Positions 6,630 to 64,000 of a stretch of DNA of 64,000 nt are shown piece by piece (position 1 is the stretch's first letter; every line of letters begins with the position of its first letter). Location: positions 8,179-72,178 of the forward strand of contig OZ241357.1 in NCBI GenBank assembly GCA_965200265.1, written 5' to 3'. The translations under genes were made by a program, and so were the position numbers. The notes below the pieces were generated by a model, which was given only the letters and a program-made list of their open reading frames with translations, was not told where the DNA came from and did no database searches. Source of the stretch: Alphaproteobacteria bacterium (GTDB lineage Bacteria > Pseudomonadota > Alphaproteobacteria > UBA2966).

Positions 6630-6711
6630 GACGCCATGTTACCGTATGGCCGGCGGCCGGGACCAAGAGGGATGCCGGCCGGCGGACAAGGGAGAAGGAA
6701 GGACGACGCTC

Positions 6712-50012: not shown

Positions 50013-51276
50013 GGCCGCCCGTCGCCCAGTCCAGAAGCTCCACCGTGTGGACGACCGGAAGGTCCGTGTAGGCCCCGATCTGCATGATGCAGCCGAGGTT
50101 GCCGGCCGCGACGACGTCGGGCGGCCCGGCGCGCTCCAGGTTCGCGGCCTTGCGCGCCCCGAGCCGCGACGCGATGGCCGGCTGGAGCATGTTGTAGGTT
50201 CCGGCGGAGCCGCAGCACAGGTGCCCCTCGGCCGGCGACCGGACGTCGAACCCCGCTTCCGCCAGCAGGCGCCGCGGCGGCTCGGTGAGGTGCTGTCCGT
50301 GGCGCAGGGAGCAGGCGTCGTGATAGGCCACGACCGTCGGTCGCGCCGGCCCCGGCTTCAGGTCCAGGCGCGCGAGCAACTCGGTCACGTCGACGGCGCG
50401 CGCGGCCACGGCCGCCGCCGCCTCGCGGAGTTCCGGCCGGTTGCGGAACAGGTGGGCGTAGTCCTTGATCGCGGCGCCGCACCCGGAGGCGTCGGCGACG
50501 ATGGCGTCGAGGCCGCCGCCCTCGATCTCGCGCCACCACGCCCGCACGCTCCGCTCCGCCGCGCGCAGCGCCGCCCGTTTGTCGCCGAGATGAAGGTTGA
50601 GCGCGCCGCAGCAGCCGGCGCCCTTGGCGACGACCACCTCGCATCCGTGCCGCCGCAGGACGCGCATCGTCGCTTCGTGGATCTCCGTCCCCGTCACCGA
50701 CTGGACGCAGCCCGTCAGCAGCGCCGCCCGCATGAGCCGCTCGCCTTGCGCGGGGTGGCGGCCGGGGGCGACGGCCGGCGCCGGGCCGCGGGCGATGCCG
50801 GGCGACAGCCGCGCCAGCGCCGCCAGGCGCGGCGGCAGCAACGCCGAGAACCGGCGCGCCAGGGCGCCCGCCGACATGGCAATTCGGAGCGCCGGCGGCC
50901 TGACCAGCACCCAGCCCAGGATGCGCCGCAGCCAGCGGTCCGGCCACGGGCGGCGGAACGTCGTTTCGATGCGGACGCGCGTCTGGTCGACGAGGCGCCG
51001 GTAGTCGACCCCCGCCGGGCACGTCGACTCGCACGACAGGCAGGAGAGGCAGCGGTCGATGTGCTTGACGGTCTCCGCCGCCGGGGGGCCGCCGGCCTCC
51101 AGCATCTCCTTCATGAGATAGACGCGCCCGCGCGGCGAATCGAGCTCGTCCCCGAGCAGGACGTAGGTCGGGCAGGTCGCCAGGCAGAACCCGCAGTGAA
51201 CGCACTTCCGCAGCACGCCGTTCGCGTCCGCGATCAGGGGATCGGCGAGCTGCTCCTCGGAGAAACGGGTCTGCAT
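49957..51276 (-). CDS. glcF: glycolate oxidase iron-sulfur subunit
   Basis: Inner start MQTRFSEEQLADPL in ORF 49957..51363. Two ferredoxin motifs, CVHCGFCLATCP and CLSCLSCESTCP, and CCG-type C-terminal domains (CCGSAG, CCGALN). Confidence 0.87.
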   Translation of the reverse strand: MQTRFSEEQLADPLIADANGVLRKCVHCGFCLATCPTYVLLGDELDSPRGRVYLMKEMLEAGGPPAAETVKHIDRCLSCLSCESTCPAGVDYRRLVDQTRVRIETTFRRPWPDRWLRRILGWVLVRPPALRIAMSAGALARRFSALLPPRLAALARLSPGIARGPAPAVAPGRHPAQGERLMRAALLTGCVQSVTGTEIHEATMRVLRRHGCEVVVAKGAGCCGALNLHLGDKRAALRAAERSVRAWWREIEGGGLDAIVADASGCGAAIKDYAHLFRNRPELREAAAAVAARAVDVTELLARLDLKPGPARPTVVAYHDACSLRHGQHLTEPPRRLLAEAGFDVRSPAEGHLCCGSAGTYNMLQPAIASRLGARKAANLERAGPPDVVAAGNLGCIMQIGAYTDLPVVHTVELLDWATGGPRPVAGGRWPVVSARGGH

Positions 51277-51391: not shown

Positions 51392-53092
51392 TTGGGCGCA
51401 CATGCATCCGGCGGCCCATACGTGGAGAACGGCCCTCATGGCTCGACGAAGCCCCTCCGTTTCCGGCCCGGTCGCCGCGCACCGCGCGAGGCCGCGTTCG
51501 TGAACGCGCTGCACGCCGTCCTCAAACGGGTACGGGCGCGACTCGTGCTCATAATCCTCGTCGCGCTGCTGATCGGTCTGCTCGTGGTCTTCGTATGGGT
51601 CGGAGTTTTCGACCCGGCATGGGTCCATCGCTTCTTCTTCGGCGAGGTGAAGGACGCGGAGAAGTCTCGAATCCTGGAACTCATCGGCGTCGGCATGGGC
51701 GGCGTGCTGCTCGCCATCGGGGCGACGATCGCCAATCGCCGCGCCGTGGCGATGGAGGTGACCAACCGGGGCGCGGAGGACGGGCGGCGGCAGGAGCGGC
51801 TGAAGAACGCCATCGAGCATCTGGGCTACAAGTCGGACTCGGTGCGCCTGGGCGGGGCCTACGAACTCTTCCATCTGGCGCGGGATACCAAAGACCTGCG
51901 CCAGACGGTTATGGACATCCTCTGCGCCCACATCCGCCGGACAACGGGGGAGGACGGGTATCGGGAGACGTACAAGGAGAAGCCTTCGACGGAGGTGCAG
52001 AGCCTGCTGACTCTGTTGTTCAGACAGGAGCATGAAGTCTTCACGGGCCGCCGCATCGACTTGCAGGGAAGCTGGCTGAACGGGGCCATGCTCGAACGGG
52101 CGCGACTGCAACGGGCGGAACTTTCTGGAGCATATCTGCAAGGGGCGATCCTTCACGGGGCGGAACTGCAAGAGGCGATCCTTCACGGGGCGGAACTACA
52201 AGGGGCGAGCCTTCACGAAGCGCAACTGCAAGAGGCGTACCTTCACGAAGCGCAATTGCAAGGAGCGGACCTTCACATGGCGCAACTGCAAGGGGCGACC
52301 CTTCACGAAACGCAACTGCAAGGGGCGCAACTGCAACGAGCGAACCTTCACGGGGCGGAACTGCAAGAAGCGAACCTTCACGGGGCGGAACTGAAAGGAG
52401 CGAACCTTCACGGGGCGCAACTGCAAAGAGCGAACCTTCTCGAAGCGCAACTGCAAGGAGTGAACCTTCACGTGGCGCAACTGCAAGGAGCGTACCTTTA
52501 CGAAGCGCAACTGCAAGGGGCGGACCTTCACGGGGCGGAACTGCAAGGAGCGGATCTTCATGCGGTGCAACTACAAGGAATGAACCTTCACGGGGCGGAA
52601 CTGCAAGGAGCGAACCTTCACGCGGCGGAACTGCAAGGAGCGAACCTTCACGCGGTGGAACTACAAGGGGCGAACCTTCTCGAAGCGCGACTGCAAGGGG
52701 CGAACCTTCACGCGGTTCAACTGCAAGGAGCAAACCTTCACAAAGCGCAACTGCAAGAAGCGAACCTTCACGCGGCGCATCTGCAAGGGGTTACTTGCCA
52801 GGATAGCAGTCGTATATCGTTCAAGGGGCGTATCCGCGAAGGGATCGGCCGAGAGAACGACCTGTCAAAGGTGACGTTCGCGGGCGGGTTGAGTCAGGAA
52901 GACGTGGATTCTCTCGTTCAGGATTTGCCCGGCGAAAAAGCGAAAAAGTTGCGGGAGAAACTGGAACCGCATGTCGACAAGGAGGCGAGCAACGAATTGC
53001 CGGAAGGCAGAGGCGCCATTGTCGAGGCCTATACGGTGGAAGAAGCCGAGCGGTGGATCGCCGAATATGCGGAAGCGACGGGTGAAGCCTAA
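51392..53092 (+). CDS. membrane-anchored pentapeptide-repeat protein, paralog 1
   Basis: ORF 51392..53092; GTG 51500 (VNALHAVLKR) is a plausible alternative start. Two TM helices (LVLIILVALLIGLLVVFVWVGVF and ILELIGVGMGGVLLAIGATIA), then a helical module LKNAIEHLGYKSDSVRLGGAYELFHLA. About 48 consecutive A(N/D)L..-type pentapeptides follow, then a conserved tail AYTVEEAERWIAEYAEATGEA. Confidence 0.8.
   Translation: MGAHASGGPYVENGPHGSTKPLRFRPGRRAPREAAFVNALHAVLKRVRARLVLIILVALLIGLLVVFVWVGVFDPAWVHRFFFGEVKDAEKSRILELIGVGMGGVLLAIGATIANRRAVAMEVTNRGAEDGRRQERLKNAIEHLGYKSDSVRLGGAYELFHLARDTKDLRQTVMDILCAHIRRTTGEDGYRETYKEKPSTEVQSLLTLLFRQEHEVFTGRRIDLQGSWLNGAMLERARLQRAELSGAYLQGAILHGAELQEAILHGAELQGASLHEAQLQEAYLHEAQLQGADLHMAQLQGATLHETQLQGAQLQRANLHGAELQEANLHGAELKGANLHGAQLQRANLLEAQLQGVNLHVAQLQGAYLYEAQLQGADLHGAELQGADLHAVQLQGMNLHGAELQGANLHAAELQGANLHAVELQGANLLEARLQGANLHAVQLQGANLHKAQLQEANLHAAHLQGVTCQDSSRISFKGRIREGIGRENDLSKVTFAGGLSQEDVDSLVQDLPGEKAKKLREKLEPHVDKEASNELPEGRGAIVEAYTVEEAERWIAEYAEATGEA
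52076..52790 (+). repeat. about 24 tandem 30-bp units encoding the pentapeptide solenoid
   Basis: Near-identical units such as CTTCACGGGGCGGAACTGCAAGGAGCGAAC recur throughout, producing the mirror-image antisense ORFs 52041..52733 and 52196..52570. Confidence 0.85.
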
Positions 53093-53131: not shown

Positions 53132-54346
53132 TTGGGCGCGTGTGCATCCGGCGGCCCATACGTGGAGAACGGCCCTCATGGCTCTACGAAGCCCCTTCGT
53201 TTCCGGCCCGGTCGCCGCACGCCGCGCGAGGCCGCGTTCGTGAACGCGCTGCGAGCCATCCTCGAATGGGTACGGGAGTCGCCCGTGCTCGCGATTCTCG
53301 TCGCGCTGCTGATCGGTCTGCTCGTGGTCTTCGTGGTCGTCGGAGTTTTCGACCCGGCATGGGTCCATCGTTTCTTCGGCGTGGAGACGGGAACGGGAAA
53401 ATTCCGAATCCTGGAATTCATCGGCGTCGGCATGGGCGGCGTGCTGCTCGCCATCGGGGCGACGATCGCCCATCGCCGCGCCCGGGCGATGGAAGATGCC
53501 GCGAACGCGCAGGCGAAGGCGGTGGCGCAGCAGACAGTAGCCAACGAAGGCGCGGAGGACGGGCGGCGGCAGGAGCGGCTGAAGAACGCCATTGAGCATC
53601 TGGGCCACGAGTCGGACTCGGTGCGCTTGGGTGGGGCCTACGAACTCTTCCATCTGGCACAGGACACCGAGGATCTACGCCAGACGGTTATGGACATCCT
53701 CTGCGCCCACATCCGCCGGACCACGGGCGAGGCCGGGTATCGGGAGACGCACAAGGAGAAGCCTTCGACGGAGGTACAGAGCCTGTTGACCTTGCTGTTC
53801 GTACGGAAGCACGCGGTTTTCAGGGGTTGCCGCATCGACTTGCAGGAAAGTTGGTTGAACGGAGCAGAGCTCGCTGGAGCGTATTTATGTGGAGCATTTT
53901 TGGACGCGGCATATCTTCGACGTGCTACACTTGTTCATGCGTACTTACAGGGAGTTACATTTATAGGTACAGAAATGCAAAACTCCTATATTACGAATGC
54001 ACATATGCAAGGTTCTACTCTCATGGGGACTGAATTACAGGGAGCACAAGCTGTAAATACTTACTTTCAGGGTGCGATTTTACATGTAGTTGATTTGAAT
54101 GAATCCAATATAAATAATGCTGATTTTCGAGGTATAACACTGCCAAGATCAGGAGGTTTTTCGAACCTGATATTGGATTCCATAAATAAAGAAAGTGACT
54201 TGACTGGAATTATTTTTGGGCAAGAAAATAATCCACAAACTATACGAGTCATGCTTGAAAAAGCAGGTGCCATCATTGGAGCCTACACGGAGGAAGAAGC
54301 CGAGCGGTGGATCGCCGAATACAACGAAGCGACGGGCAGGGGATAG
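53132..54346 (+). CDS. membrane-anchored pentapeptide-repeat protein, paralog 2 (shorter, AT-richer repeat core)
   Basis: ORF 53132..54346 (alternative GTG 53240). The leader, TM and helical module are near-identical to paralog 1, as is the tail AYTEEEAERWIAEYNEATGRG. The central repeats (53.82-54.26 kb) are divergent and visibly lower in GC. The TAG stop lies 3 nt before the mod ATG. Confidence 0.8.
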   Translation: MGACASGGPYVENGPHGSTKPLRFRPGRRTPREAAFVNALRAILEWVRESPVLAILVALLIGLLVVFVVVGVFDPAWVHRFFGVETGTGKFRILEFIGVGMGGVLLAIGATIAHRRARAMEDAANAQAKAVAQQTVANEGAEDGRRQERLKNAIEHLGHESDSVRLGGAYELFHLAQDTEDLRQTVMDILCAHIRRTTGEAGYRETHKEKPSTEVQSLLTLLFVRKHAVFRGCRIDLQESWLNGAELAGAYLCGAFLDAAYLRRATLVHAYLQGVTFIGTEMQNSYITNAHMQGSTLMGTELQGAQAVNTYFQGAILHVVDLNESNINNADFRGITLPRSGGFSNLILDSINKESDLTGIIFGQENNPQTIRVMLEKAGAIIGAYTEEEAERWIAEYNEATGRG

Positions 54347-55987
54347 CCGATGCCGACGTTGCATTGGCTGACGCGGGACGAGGACGTCGGCGCGGCGTCG
54401 CGGGCGCCGTACCGGCTTCTGGAGGAGGCGCCGGAGCTTTCCGCCGGAGAGGCGGAAGCGGGCAACATGCTGATCCAGGGCGACAATCTGGAGGCGCTGA
54501 AGGCGCTGCTGCCGTTCTACGCCGGGCGGGTGAAGTGCGTCTACATCGACCCGCCGTACAACACACGCTCGGCTTTCGCGCACTACGACGACAACCTGGA
54601 GCACGCCAAGTGGCTCGCCATGATGTGGCCGCGGCTGGAGCTCCTGCGCGACCTGCTGGCGGACGACGGCTCGATCTGGGTCTCCATCGACGACAACGAG
54701 GCGCACTACCTCAAGGTCGTCATGGACGAAGTGTTCGGCCGCAACAATTTCATCGCAAATTTCGTCTGGCAGAAGAAATATACGCGCGCGAACGACGCAA
54801 CGTTCGTGAGCGATAATCACGATCATATAGTCTGCTTTGTGAAAGATCGTGATCAGTCATCTTTTCGAGGAATACAGCGTGACGAGAGACAGAATAAAGC
54901 ATACAAGAATCCTGATAACGATTCTCGTGGATCGTGGAAATCAACACCATTACATGCGAAAAGCGGAACAGAAAAGAATAGATACCCCTATACGTTTTCC
55001 AACAGAGTGACATGGACCCCGCCTGTCGGAACCTACCACCGATTCAGCAGGGAAACACTTGCTGAGCTTGACCGTACAGGGCAATTGTGGTTTGGAACGA
55101 AGGGGGATGCGACTCCTTCGCGCAAGTCGTACCTGTCGCAAGTGAAGCAGACAGTGGTTCCGGTTACGGTATGGCTGCACGACGAGTTCGGTAGCAATCA
55201 CGACGCCAAGAACGAGAACCGGGCCGTGTTGCCGAGCGCCTATTTCGATACCCCAAAGCCCGAGAAGCTATTGGGACGTATTCTTGAGATCGCCACCGAC
55301 CCGGGCGATCTCGTGCTCGACTCGTTCCTCGGCTCCGGCACCACGGCGGCGGTCGCGCACAAGATGGGCCGGCGCTGGATCGGCGTCGAGCTGGGCGAAC
55401 ACGCCGTCACCCACTGCGCGCCGCGCCTGAAGAAGGTGATCGAGGGCGAACAGGGCGGCATCTCGCGGTCGGCGGGCTGGACGGGCGGCGGCGGCTTCCG
55501 CTTCCACCGCCTGGGGCCGCCGGCCTTCGACGCCGACGGGCGCATCCGGCCGGACGTCTCCTTCCCCGTGCTCGCCGCCCACGTCTGGTTCGCCGAGACC
55601 GGCCGCCCGTGGACCGCGCCGGCGGCGCCGTCGCCCTTCCTCGGCGCGCGCGACGGGCGGGGCTACGCGCTGCTCTACAACGGCGTGCTCCGCGACCGCT
55701 CGGCCGCCGGCGGCAACGTGCTGACGCGGCGCACGCTGTCGGCCATCCGCGCCGCGGCGGGCGGTTTCGACGGGCCGCTCACCGTCTACGCCGCGCGGTC
55801 GGCGTTCCGCGACGCGACGCTGAAGGCGGAAGGGCTGGCCTTCCGGCAGACGCCCTACGACGTGACGGCGCGGGCCTGACCGATGGAGCTCAAGCCCTAT
55901 CAGGCCGAGGCGCTCGACACGCTGCGCCGCTTCCTGGAGGACGCGCGGATCGCCGGGCCGGCGGCGTCCTACGAGAAGCTCGCCGCC
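54328..55987 (+). repeat. segmental direct duplication, copy 1 (mod allele 1 plus first ~35 codons of res)
   Basis: 54350-54745 and 55290-55987 are near-identical by eye to 60196-60590 and 61140-61836. The centres differ. Confidence 0.85.
54350..55879 (+). CDS. mod: type III restriction-modification methyltransferase (Mod), allele 1
   Basis: ORF 54350..55879. Beta-class order: catalytic DPPY (VYIDPPYNT) first, a variable middle, then SAM motif VLDSFLGSGTT. Confidence 0.9.
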   Translation: MPTLHWLTRDEDVGAASRAPYRLLEEAPELSAGEAEAGNMLIQGDNLEALKALLPFYAGRVKCVYIDPPYNTRSAFAHYDDNLEHAKWLAMMWPRLELLRDLLADDGSIWVSIDDNEAHYLKVVMDEVFGRNNFIANFVWQKKYTRANDATFVSDNHDHIVCFVKDRDQSSFRGIQRDERQNKAYKNPDNDSRGSWKSTPLHAKSGTEKNRYPYTFSNRVTWTPPVGTYHRFSRETLAELDRTGQLWFGTKGDATPSRKSYLSQVKQTVVPVTVWLHDEFGSNHDAKNENRAVLPSAYFDTPKPEKLLGRILEIATDPGDLVLDSFLGSGTTAAVAHKMGRRWIGVELGEHAVTHCAPRLKKVIEGEQGGISRSAGWTGGGGFRFHRLGPPAFDADGRIRPDVSFPVLAAHVWFAETGRPWTAPAAPSPFLGARDGRGYALLYNGVLRDRSAAGGNVLTRRTLSAIRAAAGGFDGPLTVYAARSAFRDATLKAEGLAFRQTPYDVTARA

Positions 55988-56023
55988 CACGCTGTCGCCA
56001 AGGCGGCTCCCCGTGTAACATGA
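55883..56023 (+). pseudogene. 5' stub of type III res (46 codons)
   Basis: MELKPYQAEALDTLRRFLEDARIAGPAASY matches the start of the full res at 61732. Identity ends at about 55987 and the frame stops at TGA 56021-56023. Confidence 0.8.
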
Positions 56024-56138
56024 CGGGCAGGCTGAAGGTCTGCATGGTGTCTCAAACCAACAGCTTCGGAGACCCCTTACCCTCCTTCAAGGGCCCCGTC
56101 TTGCATGTGTCTGAACCAGGTCAGCGACCAGGGCCGGC

Positions 56139-57191
56139 ATGACCCGAACCACTGACATCAAGGCCATTGACTTCTGTTGTGGTGCCGGCGGATTGACTCG
56201 CGGCTTGCTTGACGCGGGCGTTTCGGTGGTGGCGGGGCTGGACAACGACGAGCGTCTACGCAAGACCTACGAGCGCAACAACAAGCCCAGCCGCTTCGTC
56301 GCTGGCGACATCGCCGAAGTGGAGATTGACGCGCTTCGGACCGATCTAGGCATCGACGAGGAAGACATCACCTTGTACGCCGCCTGCACACCTTGCCAGC
56401 CGTTCTCCAGCCTCAACACCGCCAAGGGCGAAGACGGCAGGAAATCTCTGCTGCTGGAGTTCGGCAAGATCGTGGCCCAGCGTCCGCCGGACTTCATCAT
56501 CGTGGAGAACGTGCCGGGCTTGCACAACGCCTTTGGCCTGGACATCTACCAGGAGTTCATGGCGGCTATCAAAGCCCAGGGCTTTTGCGCCGCCTCGGAC
56601 CTCTTGGACGCCAAGGACTACGGCGTTCCGCAAACGCGCAAGCGCTTCATTCTCGCCGCCGCCAGGGGCCGCGAGCCCCGGCTGCCTGTCGCCACGACCA
56701 GGAACAGCCCGGTCACCGTGCGCGAGTGCATCGAGAAGTACCCACCCTTGGCGGCCGGCGAACAAGACACCAGGTTCGTCAACCACGCCGCCCGCAAGCT
56801 GCCACCACACCATCAGAGAATCGTAGCCGCCGTGCCCACGGATGGCGGTAGCCGCAGCGACGTGGCTGACACGTCGATTCTGCTGCCCTGCCACCAACGC
56901 CACCCCAAGGCGCACAAGGACGTTTTCGGCCGCATGGCGTGGGATGCGCCCAGCCCGACGTTGACCTGCCGCTGCACGGATGTCTACTGTGGCCGCTTCG
57001 TCCACCCACAGCAGGACCGCGGCATCTCGCTGCGCGAAGCCGCCGCGCTACAGACGTTCGACGACAGCTACGAGTTCTTCGGCGGCTCGTTCCTGGAGCA
57101 GGCGCGGCAAATCGGCAACGCCGTTCCCGTGCGACTGGCAAGAGCCTTGGGAACGGCTGCCATCGAGTGCCTGCAACCGACCAGGGCCTAG
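56139..57191 (+). CDS. DNA (cytosine-5)-methyltransferase
   Basis: ORF 56139..57191. Motif I DFCCGAGG, IV TPCQPFS, VI ENVPGL, VIII QTRKRF, X GNAVPV. Confidence 0.93.
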   Translation: MTRTTDIKAIDFCCGAGGLTRGLLDAGVSVVAGLDNDERLRKTYERNNKPSRFVAGDIAEVEIDALRTDLGIDEEDITLYAACTPCQPFSSLNTAKGEDGRKSLLLEFGKIVAQRPPDFIIVENVPGLHNAFGLDIYQEFMAAIKAQGFCAASDLLDAKDYGVPQTRKRFILAAARGREPRLPVATTRNSPVTVRECIEKYPPLAAGEQDTRFVNHAARKLPPHHQRIVAAVPTDGGSRSDVADTSILLPCHQRHPKAHKDVFGRMAWDAPSPTLTCRCTDVYCGRFVHPQQDRGISLREAAALQTFDDSYEFFGGSFLEQARQIGNAVPVRLARALGTAAIECLQPTRA

Positions 57192-57205
57192 CCAAGGAAG
57201 TTGCC

Positions 57206-59113
57206 GTGTCCAGTCCCTACCGGATCGATTTCGACATTTCCACCATCAAGCACCTCGGCTTGCAAATGTACGCCACGCTGCCGCCGGTGGTCGGGGAACT
57301 GGTCGCCAACGCTTGGGACGCAAACGCCACCCAAGTCGAAATCACCATCCCGGAAACGCCGATAGACGAGCACACGTCGGAAATCGTCATCAAGGACAAC
57401 GGTGTCGGCATGTCCGACAGCGACATTCGCGAAAAGTACCTCATCGTCGGTCGCGACCGGCGCGAGAGCGAAGGCCGTGACCGGACCCCTGCGCCATTGA
57501 ACCGCCCAATCATGGGACGCAAGGGCATCGGCAAGTTCTCGGCGTTCGGCATCGCCCGAGAGCTGGAGATAGAGAGCGTCAGCAACGGCACCGTAAGCCG
57601 CTTCGTGATGGATTACGACACGATGCTCGCAAACGCATCACGCCGCCATGCCGAATTTCCACCGCTTCAGCCCACCGGATGCACAACGGAGGGCACGACG
57701 ATCAGGCTGAGGCGAATTACCAAGTATCGGACTCGGAGCATCTCGTTGCCTCGGTTGCGCCGAGGGCTCGCCAGACGCTTCGCCGTCATCGGCTCGCAGC
57801 GCCAATTCCAGGTCGTCATCAACGACTCGCGGATCTCCGTCGAGGAGCGGGAAATGCAGCGGCTGCTCGCGAAGGATGCCGACGGCAACGCCTATCTTTG
57901 GAAGTTTGAGGACGAGGAGATCATGCCCGAGACCGGTTGGAACGTATCCGGTTGGATCGGCGCATTGGACCGAACGACGTCAGATGCGGATGGCGTGGAC
58001 CGAGGCATCTCCATCATGGCGCGCGGTAAGCTCGTGCAGGAGCCGTTCGTGTTCAACGCCGTCGTCGGCCAACAATTTGCACTGTCGTACCTCGTCGGGG
58101 AACTGCACGCGGAGTTCGTCGATGCTGGCGAGGACACCATTGGAACGAGCCGCAACGTGTTGGTCTGGGATACTGAAGCGAACGCCAAACTCATGGAGTG
58201 GGGAAAACGGCAGGTAACGAAGATCGCTCGCGAGTGGGCGGAGAAACGCCAAACCGACAACATTCGTAAACTGGAGAACAACGACCTGTACCGCAGCTTC
58301 AAGGAGCGTGCGAGCGAAGTCGGCAGCAAACACGCGTTTCCATTGGCCGACAAACTTGTGCGACAAGCGATCAGTAAAAACCCCACGGCTGGCGTTGACG
58401 AACTAGAGCCCATCATCAAGACCTCTCTGGATTTTCTGGAGTTCGACACATTCTGGGAGATCGCCCAAGGAATGGTTCAATCCGATCTGGATGACGTTGC
58501 AGCGTTGCTTGGCTTGTTCAAGGAATGGGAGGTCGTGGAAGCGAAGGAGATGATGCGTGTTACCGAGGGCAGAATTACCACGATAGGGAAGCTGCAAGAC
58601 CTCATCGAGAAGAACGCCCTCGAAGTACCCACACTGCATAACTTTCTCAAGGAGTTCCCGTGGGTCATCGATCCACGCTGGACGCTGGTGGCTGATGAAG
58701 TTTGGTTCAGCGATATGTTGAAGGAGAAGTTCCCCGACGGCGATATTGCCGAGAAAGATAGGCGAATCGACTTTCTGTGCGTTCGCGAAAGTACGAACTT
58801 TGTGGTTGTTGAAATCAAGCGCCCAGGTAGCAAAGCTTCCAATAAGGAGTTGGATCAGATATTGCGCTATGTTTCTTTTGTTCGAGACTATGTGGAGCAA
58901 ACCACAGATCCTGAACTGGCGACTCGAAACGTGGTCGGCTACTTGCTTTGCGGCGATCTGGTTGATACTTGGGAGGTGCGAGGAAAAAAGAAAGTACTTG
59001 AGCAATCACAAATCTACGTGAGGCGATACGGGGACCTATTGGGTATGGTCAAGAAGATTCACCAAGAGTTCATCGAACGCTATGAACAGCTGCAAGAACG
59101 AATCAAGACGTGA
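57206..59113 (+). CDS. GHKL (MORC/MutL-like) ATPase fused to a C-terminal PD-(D/E)xK nuclease (DUF4263/Shedu-like)
   Basis: GTG 57206 follows AAGGAAG in ORF 56939..59113. N box ELVANAWDA, G1 DNGVGM, G2 GRKGIGKFS. C-terminus RIDFLCV...VVVEIKRPG carries a D...ExK signature. Starts 14 nt after the C5-methyltransferase. Confidence 0.78.
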   Translation: MSSPYRIDFDISTIKHLGLQMYATLPPVVGELVANAWDANATQVEITIPETPIDEHTSEIVIKDNGVGMSDSDIREKYLIVGRDRRESEGRDRTPAPLNRPIMGRKGIGKFSAFGIARELEIESVSNGTVSRFVMDYDTMLANASRRHAEFPPLQPTGCTTEGTTIRLRRITKYRTRSISLPRLRRGLARRFAVIGSQRQFQVVINDSRISVEEREMQRLLAKDADGNAYLWKFEDEEIMPETGWNVSGWIGALDRTTSDADGVDRGISIMARGKLVQEPFVFNAVVGQQFALSYLVGELHAEFVDAGEDTIGTSRNVLVWDTEANAKLMEWGKRQVTKIAREWAEKRQTDNIRKLENNDLYRSFKERASEVGSKHAFPLADKLVRQAISKNPTAGVDELEPIIKTSLDFLEFDTFWEIAQGMVQSDLDDVAALLGLFKEWEVVEAKEMMRVTEGRITTIGKLQDLIEKNALEVPTLHNFLKEFPWVIDPRWTLVADEVWFSDMLKEKFPDGDIAEKDRRIDFLCVRESTNFVVVEIKRPGSKASNKELDQILRYVSFVRDYVEQTTDPELATRNVVGYLLCGDLVDTWEVRGKKKVLEQSQIYVRRYGDLLGMVKKIHQEFIERYEQLQERIKT

Positions 59114-59152
59114 GCCGATGCGATGGCCAAGTCGGACATCGGCCGCGCGACC

Positions 59153-59290
59153 CGGTCACGGCCGGCGGAACGTCGATTCGATGTGGACGCGCGTCTGGTC
59201 GACTTCCGCCAAGCATGTCGACTCGCACGACAGGCAGGGGAGGCACCGGTCGATGTGCTTGACGGTCTCCGCCGCCGGGGGGCTGCCGGC
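59153..59290 (-). pseudogene. glcF fragment
   Basis: Colinear with glcF nt 50937-51096 (CGGCGGAACGTCG.TTCGATG.GGACGCGCGTCTGGTCGAC ... GTCGACTCGCACGACAGGCAGG.GAGGCA.CGGTCGATGTGCTTGACGGTCTCCGCCGCCGGGGGG). It has an internal deletion and reads ...AAETVKHIDRCLPCLSCESTC... then stops. Confidence 0.75.
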
Positions 59291-59425
59291 ATGACGCGGG
59301 GTCGTACCCCTCGGGGCGCGACCCGGACTTTCGCGAGATACGACGACCGGCGGTACACAAGGCGTTGCATCGGCTACGGTGCCGGTCTATTGAAGAAGTG
59401 TAAGGGTTGCTTGTGAGGATCGCCG

Positions 59426-60160
59426 ATGTCTACTGCTGATGAACGACAATACAAACCACCTCGTATAGATAAGCGGGCCTTCAATTGCCCGCATTGTGGT
59501 GCTTTTGCGCACCAATATAAATATCAGACGATGGTCCAAATGATAACAAGTGATGAAAATTTCACTGCAACAATATCTCGCGATATGTCACAAAACAGGA
59601 AGAATCCATTCATAACACAAAATAATTCATATTCTCAATATCAACGAGATATGGGAGGTATTTACTTTTTTCGTTGCGGCAGCTGTCATGAGTTATCCAT
59701 ATGGATATTCAGTGAGATGATCTGGCCCTCGAAGAGTGGCGTACCACTTCCAAATCCAGATTTGCCGGATGATGTCCGTAGGGATTATGAAGAGGCAGGT
59801 GCCATTCTCGGATCGTCACCTAGGGGTGCCGCAGCATTGTTACGCTTGAGTATCCAGAAGTTGTGCAAACACCTTGGCGAATCTGGGGATAACTTGAACA
59901 AAGACATCTCTGAATTGGTCAAAAAAGGTCTCCCTCCTCTAATAAAAGAGTCGTTGGATTCGGTCCGGGTAATCGGAAACCATGCTGTTCATCCAAGTCA
60001 TATCGATCTTCAAGATGATCCAGAAACAGCACGAATCTTGTTTGATCTTGTCAATATAATTGCGGATTCAATGATAAGCACCCCGAATAAGGTGAAGAAG
60101 GTATATGAAAGTCTTCCTGAAGGCGACAAGCAAGCGATAAAAAAGAGGGACGCGAGTTAG
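59426..60160 (+). CDS. DUF4145 domain protein with N-terminal 4-Cys zinc ribbon
   Basis: ORF 59426..60160, the lowest-GC gene in the window. CPHCG...CGSC, and a helical segment AAALLRLSIQKLCKHLG...LDSVRVIGNHAVH typical of DUF4145. Confidence 0.7.
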   Translation: MSTADERQYKPPRIDKRAFNCPHCGAFAHQYKYQTMVQMITSDENFTATISRDMSQNRKNPFITQNNSYSQYQRDMGGIYFFRCGSCHELSIWIFSEMIWPSKSGVPLPNPDLPDDVRRDYEEAGAILGSSPRGAAALLRLSIQKLCKHLGESGDNLNKDISELVKKGLPPLIKESLDSVRVIGNHAVHPSHIDLQDDPETARILFDLVNIIADSMISTPNKVKKVYESLPEGDKQAIKKRDAS

Positions 60161-60177
60161 CCGATGGCGAAGCATCG

Positions 60178-61836
60178 AGGAAGCGACAAGCACCTATGCC
60201 GACGCTGCATTGGCTGACGCGGGACGAGGACGTCGGCGCGGCGTCGCGGGCACCGTACCGGCTTCTGGAGGAAGCGCCGGAGCTTTCCGCCGGAGAGGCG
60301 GAAGCGGGCAACATGCTGATCCAGGGCGACAACCTGGAGGCGCTGAAGGCGCTGCTGCCGTTCTACGCCGGGCGGGTGAAGTGCGTCTACATCGACCCGC
60401 CGTACAACACGCGCTCGGCCTTCGCGCATTACGACGACAACCTGGAGCACGCCAAATGGCTCGCCATGATGTGGCCGCGGCTGGAGCTCCTGCGCGACCT
60501 GCTGGCGGACGACGGCTCGATCTGGGTCTCCATCGACGACAACGAGGCACACTACCTCAAGGTCGTCATGGACGAGGTGTTCGGAAGAACATGTTTCATC
60601 GGGAATATGATTTGGCAGAAGATATTTTCTCCGAAGAACAGTGCTCGGCACTTTTCGGCGGATCATGACCATATGTTTGTTTACGCTCGTGATTCGGAGA
60701 CTTGGTTGCCGAATCCGCTACCCAGAACGGAGAGGCAAGACAAGCTCTACAAGAATCCCGATAACGATCCACGCGGGCCTTGGACGTCGGGTGACCTTTC
60801 GGCTCGAAACTATTACGGCGCAGGGACCTATCCGGTGACTACTCCGAAAGGTAGAATCATTTCAGGCCCTCCCAAGGGTATGTATTGGCGTGTTTCCAAG
60901 GAGAAAATGGCTGATCTTGATCGAGAGGGGCGCATTTGGTGGGGATCAGGTGGCAACAATGTCCCCCGACTGAAACGCTATCTCTCGGAAGTAAGGACTG
61001 GAATCGTCCCGCAAACCATTTGGTTCAATCAGGATGTCGGCAATACGCAAGAAGCCAAGAAAGAGATCGTGAGCCTGTTCGGCGACGACGTGTTCGGCAC
61101 CCCCAAGCCCGAACGCCTGATCCAGCGCGTCCTGCACATCGCCACCGACCCGGGCGATCTCGTGCTCGACTCGTTCCTCGGCTCCGGCACCACGGCGGCG
61201 GTCGCGCACAAGATGGGCCGGCGCTGGATCGGTATCGAGCTGGGCGAGCATGCCGTCACCCACTGTGCGCCGCGCCTGAAGAAGGTGATCGAGGGCGAAC
61301 GGGGCGGCATCTCCACGGCAGCGGGCTGGACGGGCGGCGGCGGCTTCCGCTTTCACCGCCTGGGGCCGCCCGCCTTCGACGCCGACGGGCGCATCCGGCC
61401 CGACGTCTCCTTCCCCGTGCTCGCCGCCCACGTCTGGTTCGCCGAGACCGGCCGCCCGTGGACCGCGCCGGAGGCGCCGTCGCCCTTCCTCGGCGCGCGC
61501 GACGGGCGGGGCTACGCGCTGCTCTACAACGGCGTGCTCCGGGACCGCTCGGCCGCCGGCGGCAACGTGCTGACGCGCCGCACGCTGTCGGCCATCCGCG
61601 CCGCGGCGGGCGGTTTCGACGGGCCGCTCACCGTCTACGCCGCACGGTCGGCGTTCCGCGACGCGACGCTGAAGGCGGAAGGGCTGGCCTTTCGGCAGAC
61701 GCCCTACGACGTGACGGCGCGGGCCTGACCGATGGAGCTCAAGCCCTATCAGGCCGAGGCGCTCGACACGCTGCGCCGCTTCCTGGAGGACGCGCGGATC
61801 GCCGGGCCGGCGGCGTCCTACAGGAAGCTCGCCGCC
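60178..61836 (+). repeat. segmental direct duplication, copy 2 (mod allele 2 plus start of intact res)
   Basis: See copy 1. The offset between copies is about 5.85 kb. Confidence 0.85.
60196..61728 (+). CDS. mod: type III restriction-modification methyltransferase (Mod), allele 2
   Basis: ORF 60196..61728. The first 133 aa and the last ~205 aa are essentially identical to allele 1. The central ~170 aa (TCFIGNMIWQKIF...FGTPKPERLIQRVLH) diverge strongly. Confidence 0.9.
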   Translation: MPTLHWLTRDEDVGAASRAPYRLLEEAPELSAGEAEAGNMLIQGDNLEALKALLPFYAGRVKCVYIDPPYNTRSAFAHYDDNLEHAKWLAMMWPRLELLRDLLADDGSIWVSIDDNEAHYLKVVMDEVFGRTCFIGNMIWQKIFSPKNSARHFSADHDHMFVYARDSETWLPNPLPRTERQDKLYKNPDNDPRGPWTSGDLSARNYYGAGTYPVTTPKGRIISGPPKGMYWRVSKEKMADLDREGRIWWGSGGNNVPRLKRYLSEVRTGIVPQTIWFNQDVGNTQEAKKEIVSLFGDDVFGTPKPERLIQRVLHIATDPGDLVLDSFLGSGTTAAVAHKMGRRWIGIELGEHAVTHCAPRLKKVIEGERGGISTAAGWTGGGGFRFHRLGPPAFDADGRIRPDVSFPVLAAHVWFAETGRPWTAPEAPSPFLGARDGRGYALLYNGVLRDRSAAGGNVLTRRTLSAIRAAAGGFDGPLTVYAARSAFRDATLKAEGLAFRQTPYDVTARA

Positions 61837-64000
61837 GAACCCGAACTCGCGGCGCGGCTCGGGCGCTACGCCGGGACCTACGCGCCGCTCAAGGGCCTGC
61901 CGGAGACGCCGCACGTCTGCCTGCGCCTGCCGACCGGCGGCGGCAAGACGCTCCTCGCCGCCCATGCCGTCGCCGTCGCCCGCCGCGCCTGGGTCGATCG
62001 CGACCATCCCCTCGTCCTGTGGCTGGCGCCGACCGCGACCATCCGCCGCCAGACGGCGGAGGCGCTGAAGAACCCGCGCCACCCGTGCCGCCGCGCCCTC
62101 GACGCGGCGTTCGCGGGCCGGGTGCGCGTCTTCGACATCGCCGACTTCGCCCAGCTTCGCCCTCACGACCTGCGCGGCAGGTGCTGCGTCGTCGTCGGCA
62201 CCATCCAGACGCTGCGGGTCAAGGACACCGACGGCCGCAAGGTCTACGCCCACCACGAGGACATGGAGGCGCACTTCGCCGCCCTGCCCGCGGCCGCGAT
62301 CGATGCCGCCGCCGCGCCGGGGCTGGAGCGCCTGGAGAACGGCCGGGTCAAGTTCTCCTTCGCCAACCTGCTGCATCTCCAGCGCCCGCTGATGATCGTC
62401 GACGAGGCGCACAACGCCGTCACCGGGCTCACGCGCGAGATGCAGGAGCGGGTGAACCCGTGCGCCGTGATCGAGTTCACGGCCACGCCGCGCAAGGGCT
62501 CCAACGTCCTGTTCAACGCCACGGCGTCGGAACTGAAGCGCGAGGCGATGATCAAGCTGCCGGTCGTACTCGCCGAGCACGACGCCTGGGAGGGCGCGGT
62601 GACCGCCGCCGTCGCCGCCCGCGCGGCCCTGGCCGCGGCGGCGAAGGGGGAGCGCGAGTACGTCCGCCCGGTGGCCCTGTTCCAGGCGCAGCCGAAGAAC
62701 CGCGAGGTGACGGTCGCGGCGCTGAAGCAGCACCTGATCGAGGTCGAGCGCGTGCCCGAGGAGAAGATCGCCGTCGCCACCGGCGCCCAGCGCGAGCTCG
62801 ACGGGATCGACCTGTTCGACCCGGACTGCCCGATCGAGCACGTCGTCACCGTCGAGGCGCTCAAGGAAGGCTGGGACTGCTCCTTCGCCTACGTCTTCTG
62901 TTCGGTGTCGCGGATCGGGAGCGCCACCGACGTCGAGCAGCTTCTCGGCCGGGTGCTGCGGATGCCCTACGCCGAACGGCGCGCCGACGCCGCCCTGAAC
63001 AAGGCCCATGCCTTCGTCTGCGAACCGACGTTCGGCGCCGCGGCGAAGGCGCTGACGGACAGGCTGGTGGGCATGGGCTTCGAGGAGGACGAGGCGGAAG
63101 ACGCCATCGAGCGGCGGCAGCCGGCGCTGGACGGGAACGGCGGCCTGTTCCGTCCCGGCGGCGATGGGGATCGCGCGGAGACGCAAGGCCCGGCGTCGCC
63201 GGCGGACCGGGGAGAGGCCTTCGCGGTTCCGCGCCTGATGTCGGAAGTCCAGGAGGAGCTGGAGCTCGCCGACACCGACGTGTTCATGGAGAGTCACGAC
63301 TGGTCGCTCGCCGGCCATCCGTTCCGGCCGGACGCAAGCGCGTTCGAGATCCTCGAGACGGCGCGCGGGTTCGAGATCGACGTCGACGGCGACCGCGTGG
63401 TCTACAGGCAGACCGGCGCCGAAGCGCAGTTCATGCTCGACGTCGACGTGGAGGGCTGGACGCCGCAGAGCCTGGTGCTGTGGCTCGACCGCGAGGTCCG
63501 CGCCATCGACATCGACCAGGGCGACCTGATCGCCTGGCTGTCGGGCTTCGTGAACCACCTGACGGCGGCGTGCGGCCTCCCGCCCGCCGCGCTCATGCGC
63601 GCCAGGTTCCTGCTCGCGCGCAAGGCGAAAGGGCGGATTGCCGCCATCCGCCGCGAGGAGCGCGCGAAGGTCTACCAGCAGCGCCTGTTCGCGCCGGAAG
63701 CCCGGCCGCGGGTCTCCTTCGACCACGCCTTCGCGTTCCGCGACGGCATGTACGCCGACGAACGGCGCTACCGCGGGCGCTGGCGGCCGAACCGGCACTT
63801 CCTCGGCGCCGACGCCGTGCCCGCCTTCGACGGCGCCGACGACGGCGAGGAGGTCCAATGCGCCCAGGCCCTCGATTCCCTGCCCGGCGTGACGTTCTGG
63901 ATCAGGAACGTCGCGCGGCACCCGGAGTCGTTCCGGCTGCCGCTCGCGGAAGGCTGGTTCTATCCCGATTTCGTGGCCCGGCTCGACGACGGCCGGTTCC
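61732..64000 (+). CDS. res: type III restriction endonuclease Res subunit (helicase-nuclease), 3' end beyond window
   Basis: Not in the ORF track because no stop falls within the window; translated by hand from ATG 61732 with no stop to nt 64000. Motif I LPTGGGKT, II IVDEAHN, III FTATP, then ALKEGWDC and QLLGRVLR. Approaching the nuclease core, ...GWFYPDFVA. Confidence 0.88.
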   Translation, partial: MELKPYQAEALDTLRRFLEDARIAGPAASYRKLAAEPELAARLGRYAGTYAPLKGLPETPHVCLRLPTGGGKTLLAAHAVAVARRAWVDRDHPLVLWLAPTATIRRQTAEALKNPRHPCRRALDAAFAGRVRVFDIADFAQLRPHDLRGRCCVVVGTIQTLRVKDTDGRKVYAHHEDMEAHFAALPAAAIDAAAAPGLERLENGRVKFSFANLLHLQRPLMIVDEAHNAVTGLTREMQERVNPCAVIEFTATPRKGSNVLFNATASELKREAMIKLPVVLAEHDAWEGAVTAAVAARAALAAAAKGEREYVRPVALFQAQPKNREVTVAALKQHLIEVERVPEEKIAVATGAQRELDGIDLFDPDCPIEHVVTVEALKEGWDCSFAYVFCSVSRIGSATDVEQLLGRVLRMPYAERRADAALNKAHAFVCEPTFGAAAKALTDRLVGMGFEEDEAEDAIERRQPALDGNGGLFRPGGDGDRAETQGPASPADRGEAFAVPRLMSEVQEELELADTDVFMESHDWSLAGHPFRPDASAFEILETARGFEIDVDGDRVVYRQTGAEAQFMLDVDVEGWTPQSLVLWLDREVRAIDIDQGDLIAWLSGFVNHLTAACGLPPAALMRARFLLARKAKGRIAAIRREERAKVYQQRLFAPEARPRVSFDHAFAFRDGMYADERRYRGRWRPNRHFLGADAVPAFDGADDGEEVQCAQALDSLPGVTFWIRNVARHPESFRLPLAEGWFYPDFVARLDDGRF

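What the first reader, a model, noticed from the sequence alone, without database searches (positions are those of the whole stretch)
56139..59113. C5-methyltransferase paired with a GHKL-ATPase/PD-(D/E)xK nuclease fusion nested inside the type III locus
The methyltransferase has all the canonical m5C motifs. It is followed after 14 nt by a 635-aa protein with Bergerat-fold ATPase boxes (ELVANAWDA, DNGVGM, GRKGIGKFS) and a C-terminal D...ExK nuclease resembling DUF4263 (the Shedu nuclease). Prokaryotic MORC-like GHKL ATPases have been linked computationally to R-M operons, but this ATPase-nuclease fusion coupled to an m5C methylase is, as far as I know, not experimentally characterised. It sits between the two mod copies, so this is a system within a system.
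Basis: partly seen in the sequence, partly recalled or inferred. Interest (0 to 1): 0.65.

Follow-up and report, generated by a model that had tools for sequence, protein, structure and literature searches.

The report
HgiDII-like restriction-modification gene cassette
This is a mobile two-gene restriction-modification cassette, a cytosine methylase plus an ATPase-nuclease restriction enzyme distantly related to the known enzymes HgiDII and BbrUII; the kind is already known, although the role of its ATPase has never been worked out.

Summary
Window 56139-57191 encodes a complete m5C methyltransferase. Fourteen nt later, 57206-59113 encodes a 635-aa protein with an intact GHKL ATPase, an Hsp90/MORC-like middle domain, a helical linker and a C-terminal PD-(D/E)xK nuclease (D522, E536-x-K538, Q551xxxY555).

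The claim that this fusion is uncharacterised does not hold. The protein matches NCBIfam NF050001, "BbrUII/HgiDII family restriction enzyme", over its full length (E 8e-103). Its 345 bits fall below the 550-bit equivalog cut-off, so it is a sister clade, 27-30% identical to true members. R.HgiDII was described as a GHKL fusion in 2008. The architecture is Aravind's paraMORC3 and Shedu type 1D. A solitary Vibrio relative (VcSduA) loses phage defence when its ATPase or nuclease residue is mutated.

In 64 of 80 related loci an m5C methylase lies within 400 bp. Both genes are under purifying selection. The 3.1-kb pair recurs at 93% nucleotide identity in an unrelated mobile-element context.

The nesting is real: an independent contig at 97% identity and unitigs from the best-matching run show the same layout. 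It sits between a res-less mod copy and an intact mod-res pair that differ only in their central, presumably target-recognition, region.

Verdict: new member of a known kind. Recognition sequence and ATPase role remain unknown.

The parts
56053..59161 (+). The 3.1-kb mobile two-gene cassette, with limits set by homology.
   Evidence: This span aligns without gaps at 93% nucleotide identity to locus L083, where the flanks are unrelated and look like an integrative or conjugative element. L001/L027 (an Azotimanducaceae MAG) aligns only over 56127-59085, at 79%. No terminal repeats were found.
56139..57191 (+). The dcm gene: a 350-aa C5-cytosine DNA methyltransferase, the modification subunit.
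   Evidence: Pfam PF00145 E 1.2e-49; TIGR00675 above its cut-off; PADLOC MTase_II E 2.5e-76. All m5C motifs are present. dN/dS is 0.12-0.43 against three relatives.
57194..57200 (+). Shine-Dalgarno-like AAGGAAG, 5 nt before the GTG start of the restriction gene.
   Evidence: Read directly from the sequence. The 14-nt gap after the dcm stop suggests one transcript with coupled translation; this is inferred.
57206..59113 (+). The restriction subunit: 635 aa, comprising GHKL ATPase, middle domain, helical linker and PD-(D/E)xK nuclease.
   Evidence: NCBIfam NF050001 (BbrUII/HgiDII family restriction enzyme) E 7.7e-103, covering aa 5-634 against profile 1-653 of 659, at 345 bits against a 550-bit cut-off. 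PADLOC REase_II E 1.3e-44. dN/dS is 0.16-0.32.
57263..57790 (+). GHKL (Bergerat-fold) ATPase domain, about aa 20-195. Motif I (E31-D38) is at 57296-57319, motif II (D64-G68) at 57395-57409 and motif III (G104-G109) at 57515-57532.
   Evidence: HATPase_c_3 E 2.7e-21. Motif residues are invariant in 72 relatives. The first structural model matches Hsp90/TRAP1 N-terminal domains at E 1e-7.
57791..58165 (+). GHKL-associated middle (transducer-like) domain, about aa 196-320, carrying the invariant R273-G-K275 loop (ARGKLVQE).
   Evidence: The AF2 model of aa 196-635 has mean pLDDT 78.6. Foldseek finds Hsp90/TRAP1/HtpG middle domains and MORC3/MORC2 at probability 0.96-1.0, but with E no better than 1.4e-3. 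R273 and K275 are invariant in 136 sequences.
58175..58615 (+). Long helical linker, about aa 324-470.
   Evidence: The model shows helices at fragment positions 129-288 with pLDDT about 70-88. No family match was found.
58628..59110 (+). C-terminal PD-(D/E)xK nuclease domain, about aa 475-635. D522 is at 58769-58771, E536-x-K538 at 58811-58819 and Q551xxxY555 at 58856-58870.
   Evidence: The family profile hits NucS (2vld) at E 9.3e-5, aligned on the D...ExK...QxxxY element. Forty of 70 relatives give weak SduA_C hits, and others give HSDR_N, NucS_C or PDDEXK_4. The model shows alternating helices and strands consistent with a PD-(D/E)xK core, at pLDDT 76-94 in 10-residue blocks. The top non-Hsp90/MORC Foldseek matches are mostly PD-(D/E)xK nucleases (Nt.BspD6I, XisH, MspJI, EcoT38I) at E 0.025-0.5.
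54350..55879 (+). Context: mod1, an intact 509-aa type III Mod that has no res gene of its own.
   Evidence: PADLOC MTase_III E 8e-183. It is identical to mod2 at aa 1-131 and nearly identical from about aa 302, and diverged between.
55883..56023 (+). Context: a res remnant (46 codons). Homology to the full res gene stops at 55987.
   Evidence: blastn aligns 55881-55987 to 61730-61836 at 98%. The translation departs from res after residue 35.
59152..59290 (.). Context: a decayed internal fragment of the glcF-like gene, a copy of 50940-51096, directly after the cassette.
   Evidence: 81% identity with one gap. The same fragment is present in L082.
59426..60160 (+). Context: a DUF4145 protein that matches the single-gene defence candidate PD-T7-4.
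   Evidence: PADLOC PD-T7-4 E 1.1e-78; Pfam DUF4145 E 3.5e-16.
60196..61728 (+). Context: mod2, a 510-aa type III Mod, followed by the full res gene.
   Evidence: PADLOC MTase_III E 5.5e-193.
61732..64000 (+). Context: the type III res gene, which runs off the end of the window.
   Evidence: Pfam ResIII E 1.4e-15. The orthologue in L082 is 825 aa.

Best explanation
The two genes are a self-contained, horizontally mobile Type II-like restriction-modification cassette.

The methylase puts C5-methyl groups on cytosines in a short recognition sequence that is still unknown. This marks the host DNA as self.

The 635-aa protein is the restriction subunit. It belongs to a sister clade of the HgiDII/BbrUII restriction enzymes. 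I propose that it acts as a homodimer closed by ATP-dependent dimerisation of its N-terminal GHKL domains, as in MutL, MORC and Hsp90. In this model the middle domain and the long helical linker form a clamp around DNA, and the ATPase cycle licenses the two C-terminal PD-(D/E)xK nuclease domains to cut unmethylated sites.

What is shown here: the domain composition, the intact catalytic motifs, full-length homology to a named restriction-enzyme family, tight and conserved linkage to an m5C methylase, purifying selection on both genes, and movement of the pair as a unit.

What is inferred: dimerisation, clamp formation, the need for ATP, the recognition sequence, and cleavage of unmethylated DNA by this particular protein.
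For: Family. NF050001 matches at E 7.7e-103 over the full length and PADLOC REase_II at E 1.3e-44. Bona fide family members (L046, L054, L064, L077; 720-800 bits) have the same length and architecture and are 27-30% identical to this protein. One relative of L064 is named "BbrUII/HgiDII family restriction enzyme" by UniRef (P0236).

Literature. M.HgiDII is an m5C methylase for GTCGAC and M.BbrUII is an m5C methylase. R.HgiDII has an N-terminal GHKL domain.

Linkage. An m5C methylase lies within 400 bp in 27 of 32 close-clade loci and 37 of 48 distant loci. Methylase and nuclease identities fall together across loci, for example 85/77, 75/70 and 68/65%.

Decay pattern. Four close-clade loci keep an intact dcm beside a truncated or disrupted nuclease gene: L025, L028, L040 and L041.

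Catalytic integrity. GHKL motifs I-III and D522/E536/K538/Q551/Y555 are invariant. dN/dS is 0.16-0.32 for the nuclease gene and 0.12-0.43 for dcm.

Mobility. The pair recurs at 93% nucleotide identity in an unrelated context and as a bare two-gene insert among metabolic genes. Relatives 55-77% identical occur in many phyla.

Role of the ATPase. VcSduA, which has the same domain layout, needs both its GHKL glutamate and its nuclease lysine for phage defence.
Against: The score is below NCBIfam's equivalog cut-off (345 against 550 bits), so function is transferred from relatives that are only 27-30% identical.

Nothing was tested biochemically. I could not read the primary HgiDII and BbrUII papers, so I do not know how directly the R genes themselves were tied to cleavage.

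As far as I recall, HgiDII is listed as an ordinary Type IIP enzyme assayed without ATP. If that is right, ATP gating may not be obligatory.

Two close-clade members with intact ORFs have no methylase within 400 bp (L010: none in the 13.9-kb locus; L008: a distant 35%-identical one about 4.5 kb away on the opposite strand). The nuclease is therefore not always guarded by a linked methylase.

Foldseek support for the middle and nuclease domains is weak by E-value; no match reaches 1e-3.
Confidence: 0.8

Rival explanations
1. The 635-aa protein is a Shedu-type (type 1D, paraMORC3) innate-immunity nuclease. It would sense infection through its GHKL and middle domains rather than by reading methylation, and the neighbouring methylase would be a separate or merely co-travelling gene.
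For: The architecture equals that of VcSduA, which defends as a single gene, and that of type 1D Shedu proteins with a GHKL domain and an Hsp90/MORC-like middle domain. Forty of 70 relatives give weak SduA_C hits. A few intact relatives have no methylase nearby (L010, L008). Iyer et al. also noted solitary paraMORC3 genes.
Against: A methylase is adjacent in 64 of 80 loci, usually 40-70 bp upstream on the same strand, and it co-diverges with the nuclease. Here the gap is 14 nt. The pair moves as a unit. SduA_C is below the gathering score and no PADLOC Shedu model hits. The nearest named family consists of restriction enzymes with cognate m5C methylases.
Confidence: 0.1
2. The protein is a repair nuclease rather than a restriction nuclease: a fused MutL-plus-Vsr/NucS analogue that nicks T:G mismatches created when the partner methylase's m5C deaminates.
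For: The best solved-structure sequence match of the nuclease domain is the mismatch endonuclease NucS/EndoMS. GHKL proteins of the MutL type work with Vsr and MutH in methyl-linked repair, and dcm genes commonly travel with vsr (discussed in PMC2292703). No vsr gene is present in this cassette.
Against: The NucS match covers only the generic D...ExK...QxxxY catalytic core. No N-terminal mismatch-binding domain of NucS was matched. The named relatives are annotated as restriction enzymes. Decay of the nuclease gene beside an intact dcm and promiscuous spread between phyla fit a toxic selfish module better than a repair gene.
Confidence: 0.05
3. The restriction gene is a non-functional relic and the methylase now acts as an orphan, for example as an epigenetic regulator.
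For: Truncated nuclease genes beside an intact dcm occur in related loci (L025, L028, L040, L041). Within the close pair window/L082, the methylase is more conserved than the nuclease (99% against 95% amino-acid identity).
Against: In this window the ORF is full length, every catalytic residue of both domains is intact, and dN/dS is 0.16-0.32.
Confidence: 0.05

Closest known systems
R.HgiDII / R.BbrUII with M.HgiDII / M.BbrUII (Type II R-M; NCBIfam NF050001)
   Same: The length is about 635-660 aa. The order of domains is the same: N-terminal GHKL ATPase, middle domain, helical linker, C-terminal domain with invariant D...ExK...QxxxY. An m5C methylase gene lies directly upstream on the same strand. 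Homology runs over the full length (E 7.7e-103).
   Different: Identity is only 27-30%, and the score of 345 bits is below the 550-bit equivalog cut-off. The methylase's variable region (aa 181-285) is 28-35% identical to those of bona fide family loci, against 52-87% within this clade, so the recognition sequence may not be GTCGAC. GTCGAC shows no avoidance in the window (75 observed, 79 expected), which is uninformative either way.
VcSduA of Vibrio cholerae (GHKL-Shedu, Shedu type 1D)
   Same: An N-terminal GHKL ATPase, a clamp-like middle domain and a C-terminal PD-(D/E)xK nuclease. The catalytic Glu and Lys sit at similar positions (E27/K557 there, E31/K538 here). Both were shown to be needed for phage defence in VcSduA (PMC12137116).
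   Different: VcSduA acts as a single gene without a methylase. Its nuclease domain is reported as DUF4263, whereas here DUF4263/SduA_C is below threshold.
paraMORC3 family (Iyer, Abhiman and Aravind 2008)
   Same: It is defined as GHKL plus an S5 domain plus a C-terminal RecB-like restriction-endonuclease-fold domain with E-D-ExK motifs, laterally mobile, with a stated link to R-M systems. This protein fits that description.
   Different: The paper says the nuclease-bearing subset is mostly solitary in proteobacteria and Bacteroidetes. Here and in most relatives the gene is tightly paired with dcm. I could not test membership against their alignment.
NucS/EndoMS C-terminal nuclease domain
   Same: It is the best solved-structure sequence match to the C-terminal domain profile (2vld, E 9.3e-5), aligned on D...ExK...QxxxY. 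EndoMS is also the reported closest structural relative of the Shedu nuclease.
   Different: NucS has an N-terminal mismatch-binding domain and no GHKL ATPase, and it works in mismatch repair.
MutL / MORC / Hsp90 GHKL ATPases
   Same: A Bergerat-fold ATPase followed by a middle domain that matches Hsp90 and MORC middle domains. They serve as the model for ATP-driven N-terminal dimerisation.
   Different: There is no MutL C-terminal endonuclease domain and no chaperone or chromatin modules. Sequence similarity is limited to the ATP-binding motifs.

Membership tests
BbrUII/HgiDII family restriction enzyme (NCBIfam NF050001, equivalog) | Full-length match to the family profile | tested here: met
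   E 7.7e-103, aa 5-634 against profile positions 1-653 of 659.
BbrUII/HgiDII family restriction enzyme (NCBIfam NF050001, equivalog) | Score at or above the curated cut-off (550 bits) | tested here: not met
   345.2 bits. True members found here score 720-800 bits. The protein is therefore filed as a sister clade, not as an equivalog.
BbrUII/HgiDII family restriction enzyme (NCBIfam NF050001, equivalog) | Cognate m5C methyltransferase gene adjacent | tested here: met
   dcm ends 14 nt upstream. The same arrangement holds in 64 of 80 relatives.
BbrUII/HgiDII family restriction enzyme (NCBIfam NF050001, equivalog) | Cleaves at GTCGAC (SalI isoschizomer) | not testable with these tools
   The methylase's variable region is only 28-35% identical to those of true family loci. 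Counts of GTCGAC are uninformative.
Type II restriction-modification system | Separate methylase and nuclease genes that are adjacent and inherited together | tested here: met
Type II restriction-modification system | The nuclease cuts unmethylated recognition sites and methylation protects | not testable with these tools
   This needs cloning and biochemistry.
paraMORC3 (GHKL + S5 + RecB-like nuclease) | GHKL domain with intact ATP-binding motifs | tested here: met
paraMORC3 (GHKL + S5 + RecB-like nuclease) | S5/transducer-type middle domain after the ATPase | tested here: inconclusive
   Foldseek matches Hsp90, HtpG and MORC middle domains at probability 0.96-1.0 but with E no better than 1.4e-3. 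The R273/K275 loop is invariant.
paraMORC3 (GHKL + S5 + RecB-like nuclease) | C-terminal restriction-endonuclease fold with E-D-ExK motifs | tested here: met
   D522, E536, K538, Q551 and Y555 are invariant. E498 is conserved in 48 of 72. NucS profile hit at E 9.3e-5.
Shedu (SduA, DUF4263) | DUF4263/SduA_C domain at Pfam's gathering score | tested here: not met
   19.6 bits for the whole protein and 21.7 bits for the isolated domain, against 27. Forty of 70 relatives hit only weakly, best E 2e-6.
Shedu (SduA, DUF4263) | Match to PADLOC Shedu models | tested here: not met
   There is no SduA hit at E up to 0.01. The top PADLOC hits are REase_II models.
Shedu (SduA, DUF4263) | Single-gene system that does not depend on a methylase | tested here: not met
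   The gene is paired with dcm here and in 80% of relatives.
Shedu (SduA, DUF4263) | PD-(D/E)xK motifs I-IV (E, D, ExK, Q) | tested here: met
   compared with the motif list in PMC10441436.

The most novel reading that the evidence does not exclude
The HgiDII superfamily, this clade included, may be a mechanistically distinct class of restriction enzyme: an ATP-gated, MutL/MORC-like dimeric DNA clamp whose GHKL cycle licenses a NucS/Shedu-type nuclease. On this reading the methylase-guarded (R-M) forms and the solitary (Shedu 1D, VcSduA-like) forms are interconvertible states of one machine. The methylase would then simply supply self-immunity to what is otherwise an innate-immunity nuclease.
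Probability: 0.4. Interest if true: 0.55.

Novelty: new member of a known kind. Interest (0 to 1): 0.3.

Why it matters
For annotation, the gene should be called a restriction subunit of the HgiDII/BbrUII superfamily, not "ATP-binding protein", the name given to every annotated hit in the plasmid search apart from one "sensor histidine kinase" and one "putative membrane protein".

Three smaller points could interest specialists.

(1) The C-terminal domain of R.HgiDII was left without a fold in 2008. The alignments here give it an invariant D...ExK...QxxxY PD-(D/E)xK core shared with this clade. That ties a classical Type II enzyme to the paraMORC3 and Shedu-1D nucleases.

(2) All GHKL catalytic residues are invariant across the 72 relatives checked; the superfamily has about 577 clusters at 50% identity. 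This argues that ATP turnover matters in a family usually treated as ordinary Type II. That is directly testable.

(3) This clade is widespread in sponge and marine symbiont genomes of many phyla. It is a clean example of an R-M cassette moving within one microbiome.

None of this changes the category. It is a restriction-modification system.

Tried and rejected
- A full-length AF2 model from a shallow 20-sequence alignment was poor (pLDDT 54.9). Its Foldseek list was filled by Hsp90 N-terminal domains and said nothing about the C-terminus.
I instead folded aa 196-635 with 135 database proteins from two searches.
- That model's Foldseek matches point the expected way, but none reaches E 1e-3. 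I count them as supporting evidence, not as decisive.
- The exact protein is not on record in the contig index.
- The plasmid collection holds only relatives below 32% identity. Nearly all are named "ATP-binding protein".
- The primary BbrUII paper (PMC3815753) and the final Shedu paper (PMC11805627) are not held. I used the Shedu preprint instead.
- Promoter and terminator scans found nothing above the shuffled expectation.
- A search for terminal repeats or target duplications at the cassette ends found only chance-level short matches.
- Palindrome counts in the window gave GTCGAC 75 observed against 79 expected. This does not reveal the recognition site.
- A methylation-dependent (Type IV) reading was rejected, because such a nuclease would attack the DNA marked by its own operon partner.


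Full report
**1. What is in the sequence**

The stretch holds two co-oriented ORFs. The first, 56139-57191, encodes 350 aa and ends in TAG at 57189-57191. A Shine-Dalgarno-like AAGGAAG follows at 57194-57200. GTG at 57206 then opens a 635-aa ORF that ends at 59113.

The first protein is a complete C5-cytosine methyltransferase. It matches Pfam DNA_methylase at E 1.2e-49 over almost the whole profile. It scores above the cut-off of TIGR00675 and matches PADLOC MTase_II at E 2.5e-76.

The second protein has an N-terminal HATPase_c_3 domain (E 2.7e-21, aa 27-144). It also gives weak, sub-threshold hits near aa 476-565 to SduA_C, HSDR_N_2 and NucS, all of which are PD-(D/E)xK families.

**2. Which family it belongs to**

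The decisive result is NCBIfam NF050001, "BbrUII/HgiDII family restriction enzyme". It matches at E 7.7e-103 and aligns residues 5-634 to profile positions 1-653 of 659. PADLOC files the protein under two REase_II models, at E 1.3e-44 and 4.6e-37.

The score of 345 bits is below the model's equivalog cut-off of 550. To see what that means I scanned ten relatives recovered from genomes. Four of them (L046, L054, L064, L077) score 720-800 bits and are true family members. They are 27-30% identical to the window protein over its whole length. A database relative of L064 carries the UniRef name "BbrUII/HgiDII family restriction enzyme" (P0236).

The window protein is therefore a sister clade of the named family, with the same architecture. 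A HMMER scan of 1.84 billion cluster representatives gives 577 clusters at E up to 1e-30, nearly all 600-700 aa long. The window's own clade collapses to essentially one representative.

**3. Domains and catalytic residues**

In 72 relatives that are 27-77% identical, GHKL motif I (E31, N35, D38), motif II (D64, G66, G68) and motif III (G104, K106, G107, G109) are invariant.

In a 136-sequence alignment spanning this clade and the true HgiDII clade, several more residues are invariant. They are R273 and K275 in a conserved ARGKLVQE loop, and D522, E536, K538, Q551 and Y555.

A profile of the C-terminal 170 residues from 70 relatives hits the nuclease domain of NucS (PDB 2vld) at E 9.3e-5. The alignment falls exactly on D...ExK...QxxxY. 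EndoMS follows at E 0.023, and a Shedu effector at E 1.4. Scanned one by one, 40 of the 70 domains give weak SduA_C hits. Others hit HSDR_N, NucS_C, PDDEXK_4 or YhcG_C, all PD-(D/E)xK families.

An AlphaFold2 model of aa 196-635, built on 136 sequences, reaches mean pLDDT 78.6. It shows three parts:
- a beta-rich middle domain;
- a long helical region;
- a C-terminal domain of alternating helices and strands, consistent with a PD-(D/E)xK core, at pLDDT 76-94 in 10-residue blocks.

Foldseek against the PDB gives Hsp90, TRAP1 and HtpG middle domains and MORC3/MORC2 for the first part. For the last part it gives PD-(D/E)xK enzymes: Nt.BspD6I, XisH, MspJI and EcoT38I. No match is better than E 1.4e-3, so I treat this as consistent rather than decisive.

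That test is not met, so the nuclease assignment stands.

**4. What the literature already says**

- Orlowski and Bujnicki (2008) described R.HgiDII as an N-terminal GHKL domain plus a C-terminal domain they could not assign. They listed four other putative restriction-enzyme subfamilies with N-terminal GHKL domains, one of which has a PD-(D/E)xK C-terminus.
- Iyer, Abhiman and Aravind (2008) defined paraMORC3 as GHKL + S5 + a RecB-like E-D-ExK nuclease. They proposed roles in R-M systems.
- M.HgiDII is an m5C methylase for GTCGAC, and M.BbrUII is an m5C methylase of Bifidobacterium breve.
- Gu et al. classified GHKL-plus-middle-domain fusions to DUF4263 as Shedu type 1D. They reported EndoMS as the nearest structural relative of the Shedu nuclease.
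- Adams et al. (2025) showed that VcSduA, a solitary GHKL-DUF4263 protein, protects against T1-like phages. Both E27A and K557A abolish that protection.

The statement that this fusion is uncharacterised is therefore out of date. What remains open, as far as I could find, is what the ATPase does in the methylase-linked enzymes.

**5. Evidence that the pair is a functional unit**

- Among 80 genome loci with a relative, an m5C methylase lies within 400 bp in 27 of 32 close-clade loci and 37 of 48 distant loci. It is usually directly upstream on the same strand.
- Methylase and nuclease identities to the window pair fall in step across loci.
- Four close-clade loci keep an intact dcm next to a truncated or interrupted nuclease gene (L025, L028, L040, L041). 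This is the usual way R-M systems decay.
- dN/dS against three relatives is 0.16-0.32 for the nuclease gene and 0.12-0.43 for dcm.
- The pair occurs as a bare two-gene insert among metabolic genes in an Azotimanducaceae MAG.
- It also occurs at 93% nucleotide identity over exactly 56053-59161 inside an unrelated region with SSB, Toprim and large helicase genes, typical of an integrative or conjugative element. That span sets the limits of the mobile cassette.
- I found no recombinase gene and no terminal repeats.

Two close-clade members with intact ORFs have no methylase within 400 bp (L010: none in the locus; L008: a distant one about 4.5 kb away on the opposite strand). This keeps a Shedu-like solitary mode open for part of the family.

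**6. Recognition sequence**

I could not determine it. The methylase's variable region (aa 181-285) is 52-87% identical within this clade. It is only 28-35% identical to the methylases of true HgiDII-family loci. GTCGAC should not be assumed. Counts of GTCGAC in the window show no avoidance.

**7. The surroundings**

The region from about 51.4 kb to the end of the window has lower G+C than the backbone, 0.51-0.64 against about 0.70. It lies after core genes for an aminotransferase and a GlcF-like iron-sulfur protein. The layout is:
- two pentapeptide-repeat proteins;
- mod1;
- a 46-codon res remnant;
- the dcm-nuclease cassette;
- a 140-nt decayed copy of an internal glcF segment;
- a PD-T7-4 (DUF4145) gene;
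- mod2;
- the full res gene.

mod1 and mod2 are identical at aa 1-131 and nearly identical from about aa 302. They have diverged in between, presumably in the target-recognition region.

The order "glcF piece, cargo, mod, res start" occurs twice. It therefore looks as if two alleles of one hotspot were joined head to tail, with the cassette at the joint. A single crossover of a circular fragment would produce this. That is my inference and is untested.

The layout is not an assembly artefact. Contig L082, from another assembly, is collinear at 97% from the pentapeptide gene to res. Exact unitigs at about 60x in run X1 cover 55943-56288 and 59254-60235, which span the res'-to-dcm and PD-T7-4-to-mod2 junctions. 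The runs that hold the sequence are sponge and marine metagenomes. The close clade is spread over Poribacteria, Latescibacterota, Dehalococcoidia, Acidobacteriota and other phyla.

**8. Verdict**

The best explanation is a mobile Type II-like R-M cassette whose nuclease is a sister clade of HgiDII/BbrUII (confidence 0.8). An ATP-driven GHKL clamp that gates a PD-(D/E)xK nuclease is the likely but unproven mechanism.

The rivals are less likely: a solitary-style Shedu sensor nuclease (0.1), a MutL/Vsr-like repair nuclease (0.05) and a dead gene (0.05).

This is a new member of a known kind. Interest is modest (0.3). It rests mainly on the untested role of the ATPase and on the link between a classical restriction enzyme family and Shedu-type nucleases.

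Noticed in passing
window 54350-55879 and 60196-61728; L082 8153-9697: The two type III mod copies share identical ends and differ only in the central region, about aa 132-300. In the 97%-identical contig L082 the second mod carries yet another central region: 514 aa, with window 60622-61086 not aligning. Central-region cassettes are therefore being swapped between close strains. Because mod1 shares its N- and C-terminal parts with mod2, the single Res might work with either Mod; that is speculation.
   Followed up: partly
window 59152-59290 versus 50940-51096: A decayed internal piece of the glcF-like gene (81% identity) sits right after the restriction gene. Together with the res remnant at 55883-56023, it suggests that two alleles of a "glcF, cargo, mod, res" hotspot were joined, with the R-M cassette at the joint. 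A post-segregational-killing cassette between direct mod repeats would also select against deletion by recombination between them.
   Followed up: partly
window 59426-60160: A 244-aa DUF4145 protein matches the PADLOC single-gene defence candidate PD-T7-4 at E 1.1e-78. It lies between the cassette and mod2 and is conserved in L082.
   Followed up: no
window 51392-53092 and 53132-54346: Two tandem pentapeptide-repeat proteins have 88-89% identical N-terminal parts, each with a hydrophobic stretch, and a shared 72-nt C-terminal end. The first carries a long 15-nt-period repeat array at about 52009-52800. L082 has a different repeat content. Their function next to the type III system is unknown.
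   Followed up: no
L010 5977-7914; L008 about 6010-7914: Two close-clade relatives (62-64% identical) have intact ORFs but no m5C methylase within 400 bp. L010 has none in the locus and sits among metabolic genes. L008 lies beside AAA_15/AAA_21-DUF3696 defence-type ATPases; its nearest methylase is about 4.5 kb away on the opposite strand. These may be solitary, Shedu-like uses of the same protein.
   Followed up: partly
L025, L028, L040, L041: In these close-clade loci the nuclease gene is truncated or interrupted while the upstream dcm is intact. This is the expected decay route of an R-M pair towards an orphan methylase.
   Followed up: partly
runs X1, X3, X6 laid on window 55600-60400: Several diverged versions of the cassette (90-95% alike) coexist with the exact one in single sponge samples, at different depths. 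The cassette therefore sits in several symbiont genomes of one host.
   Followed up: no
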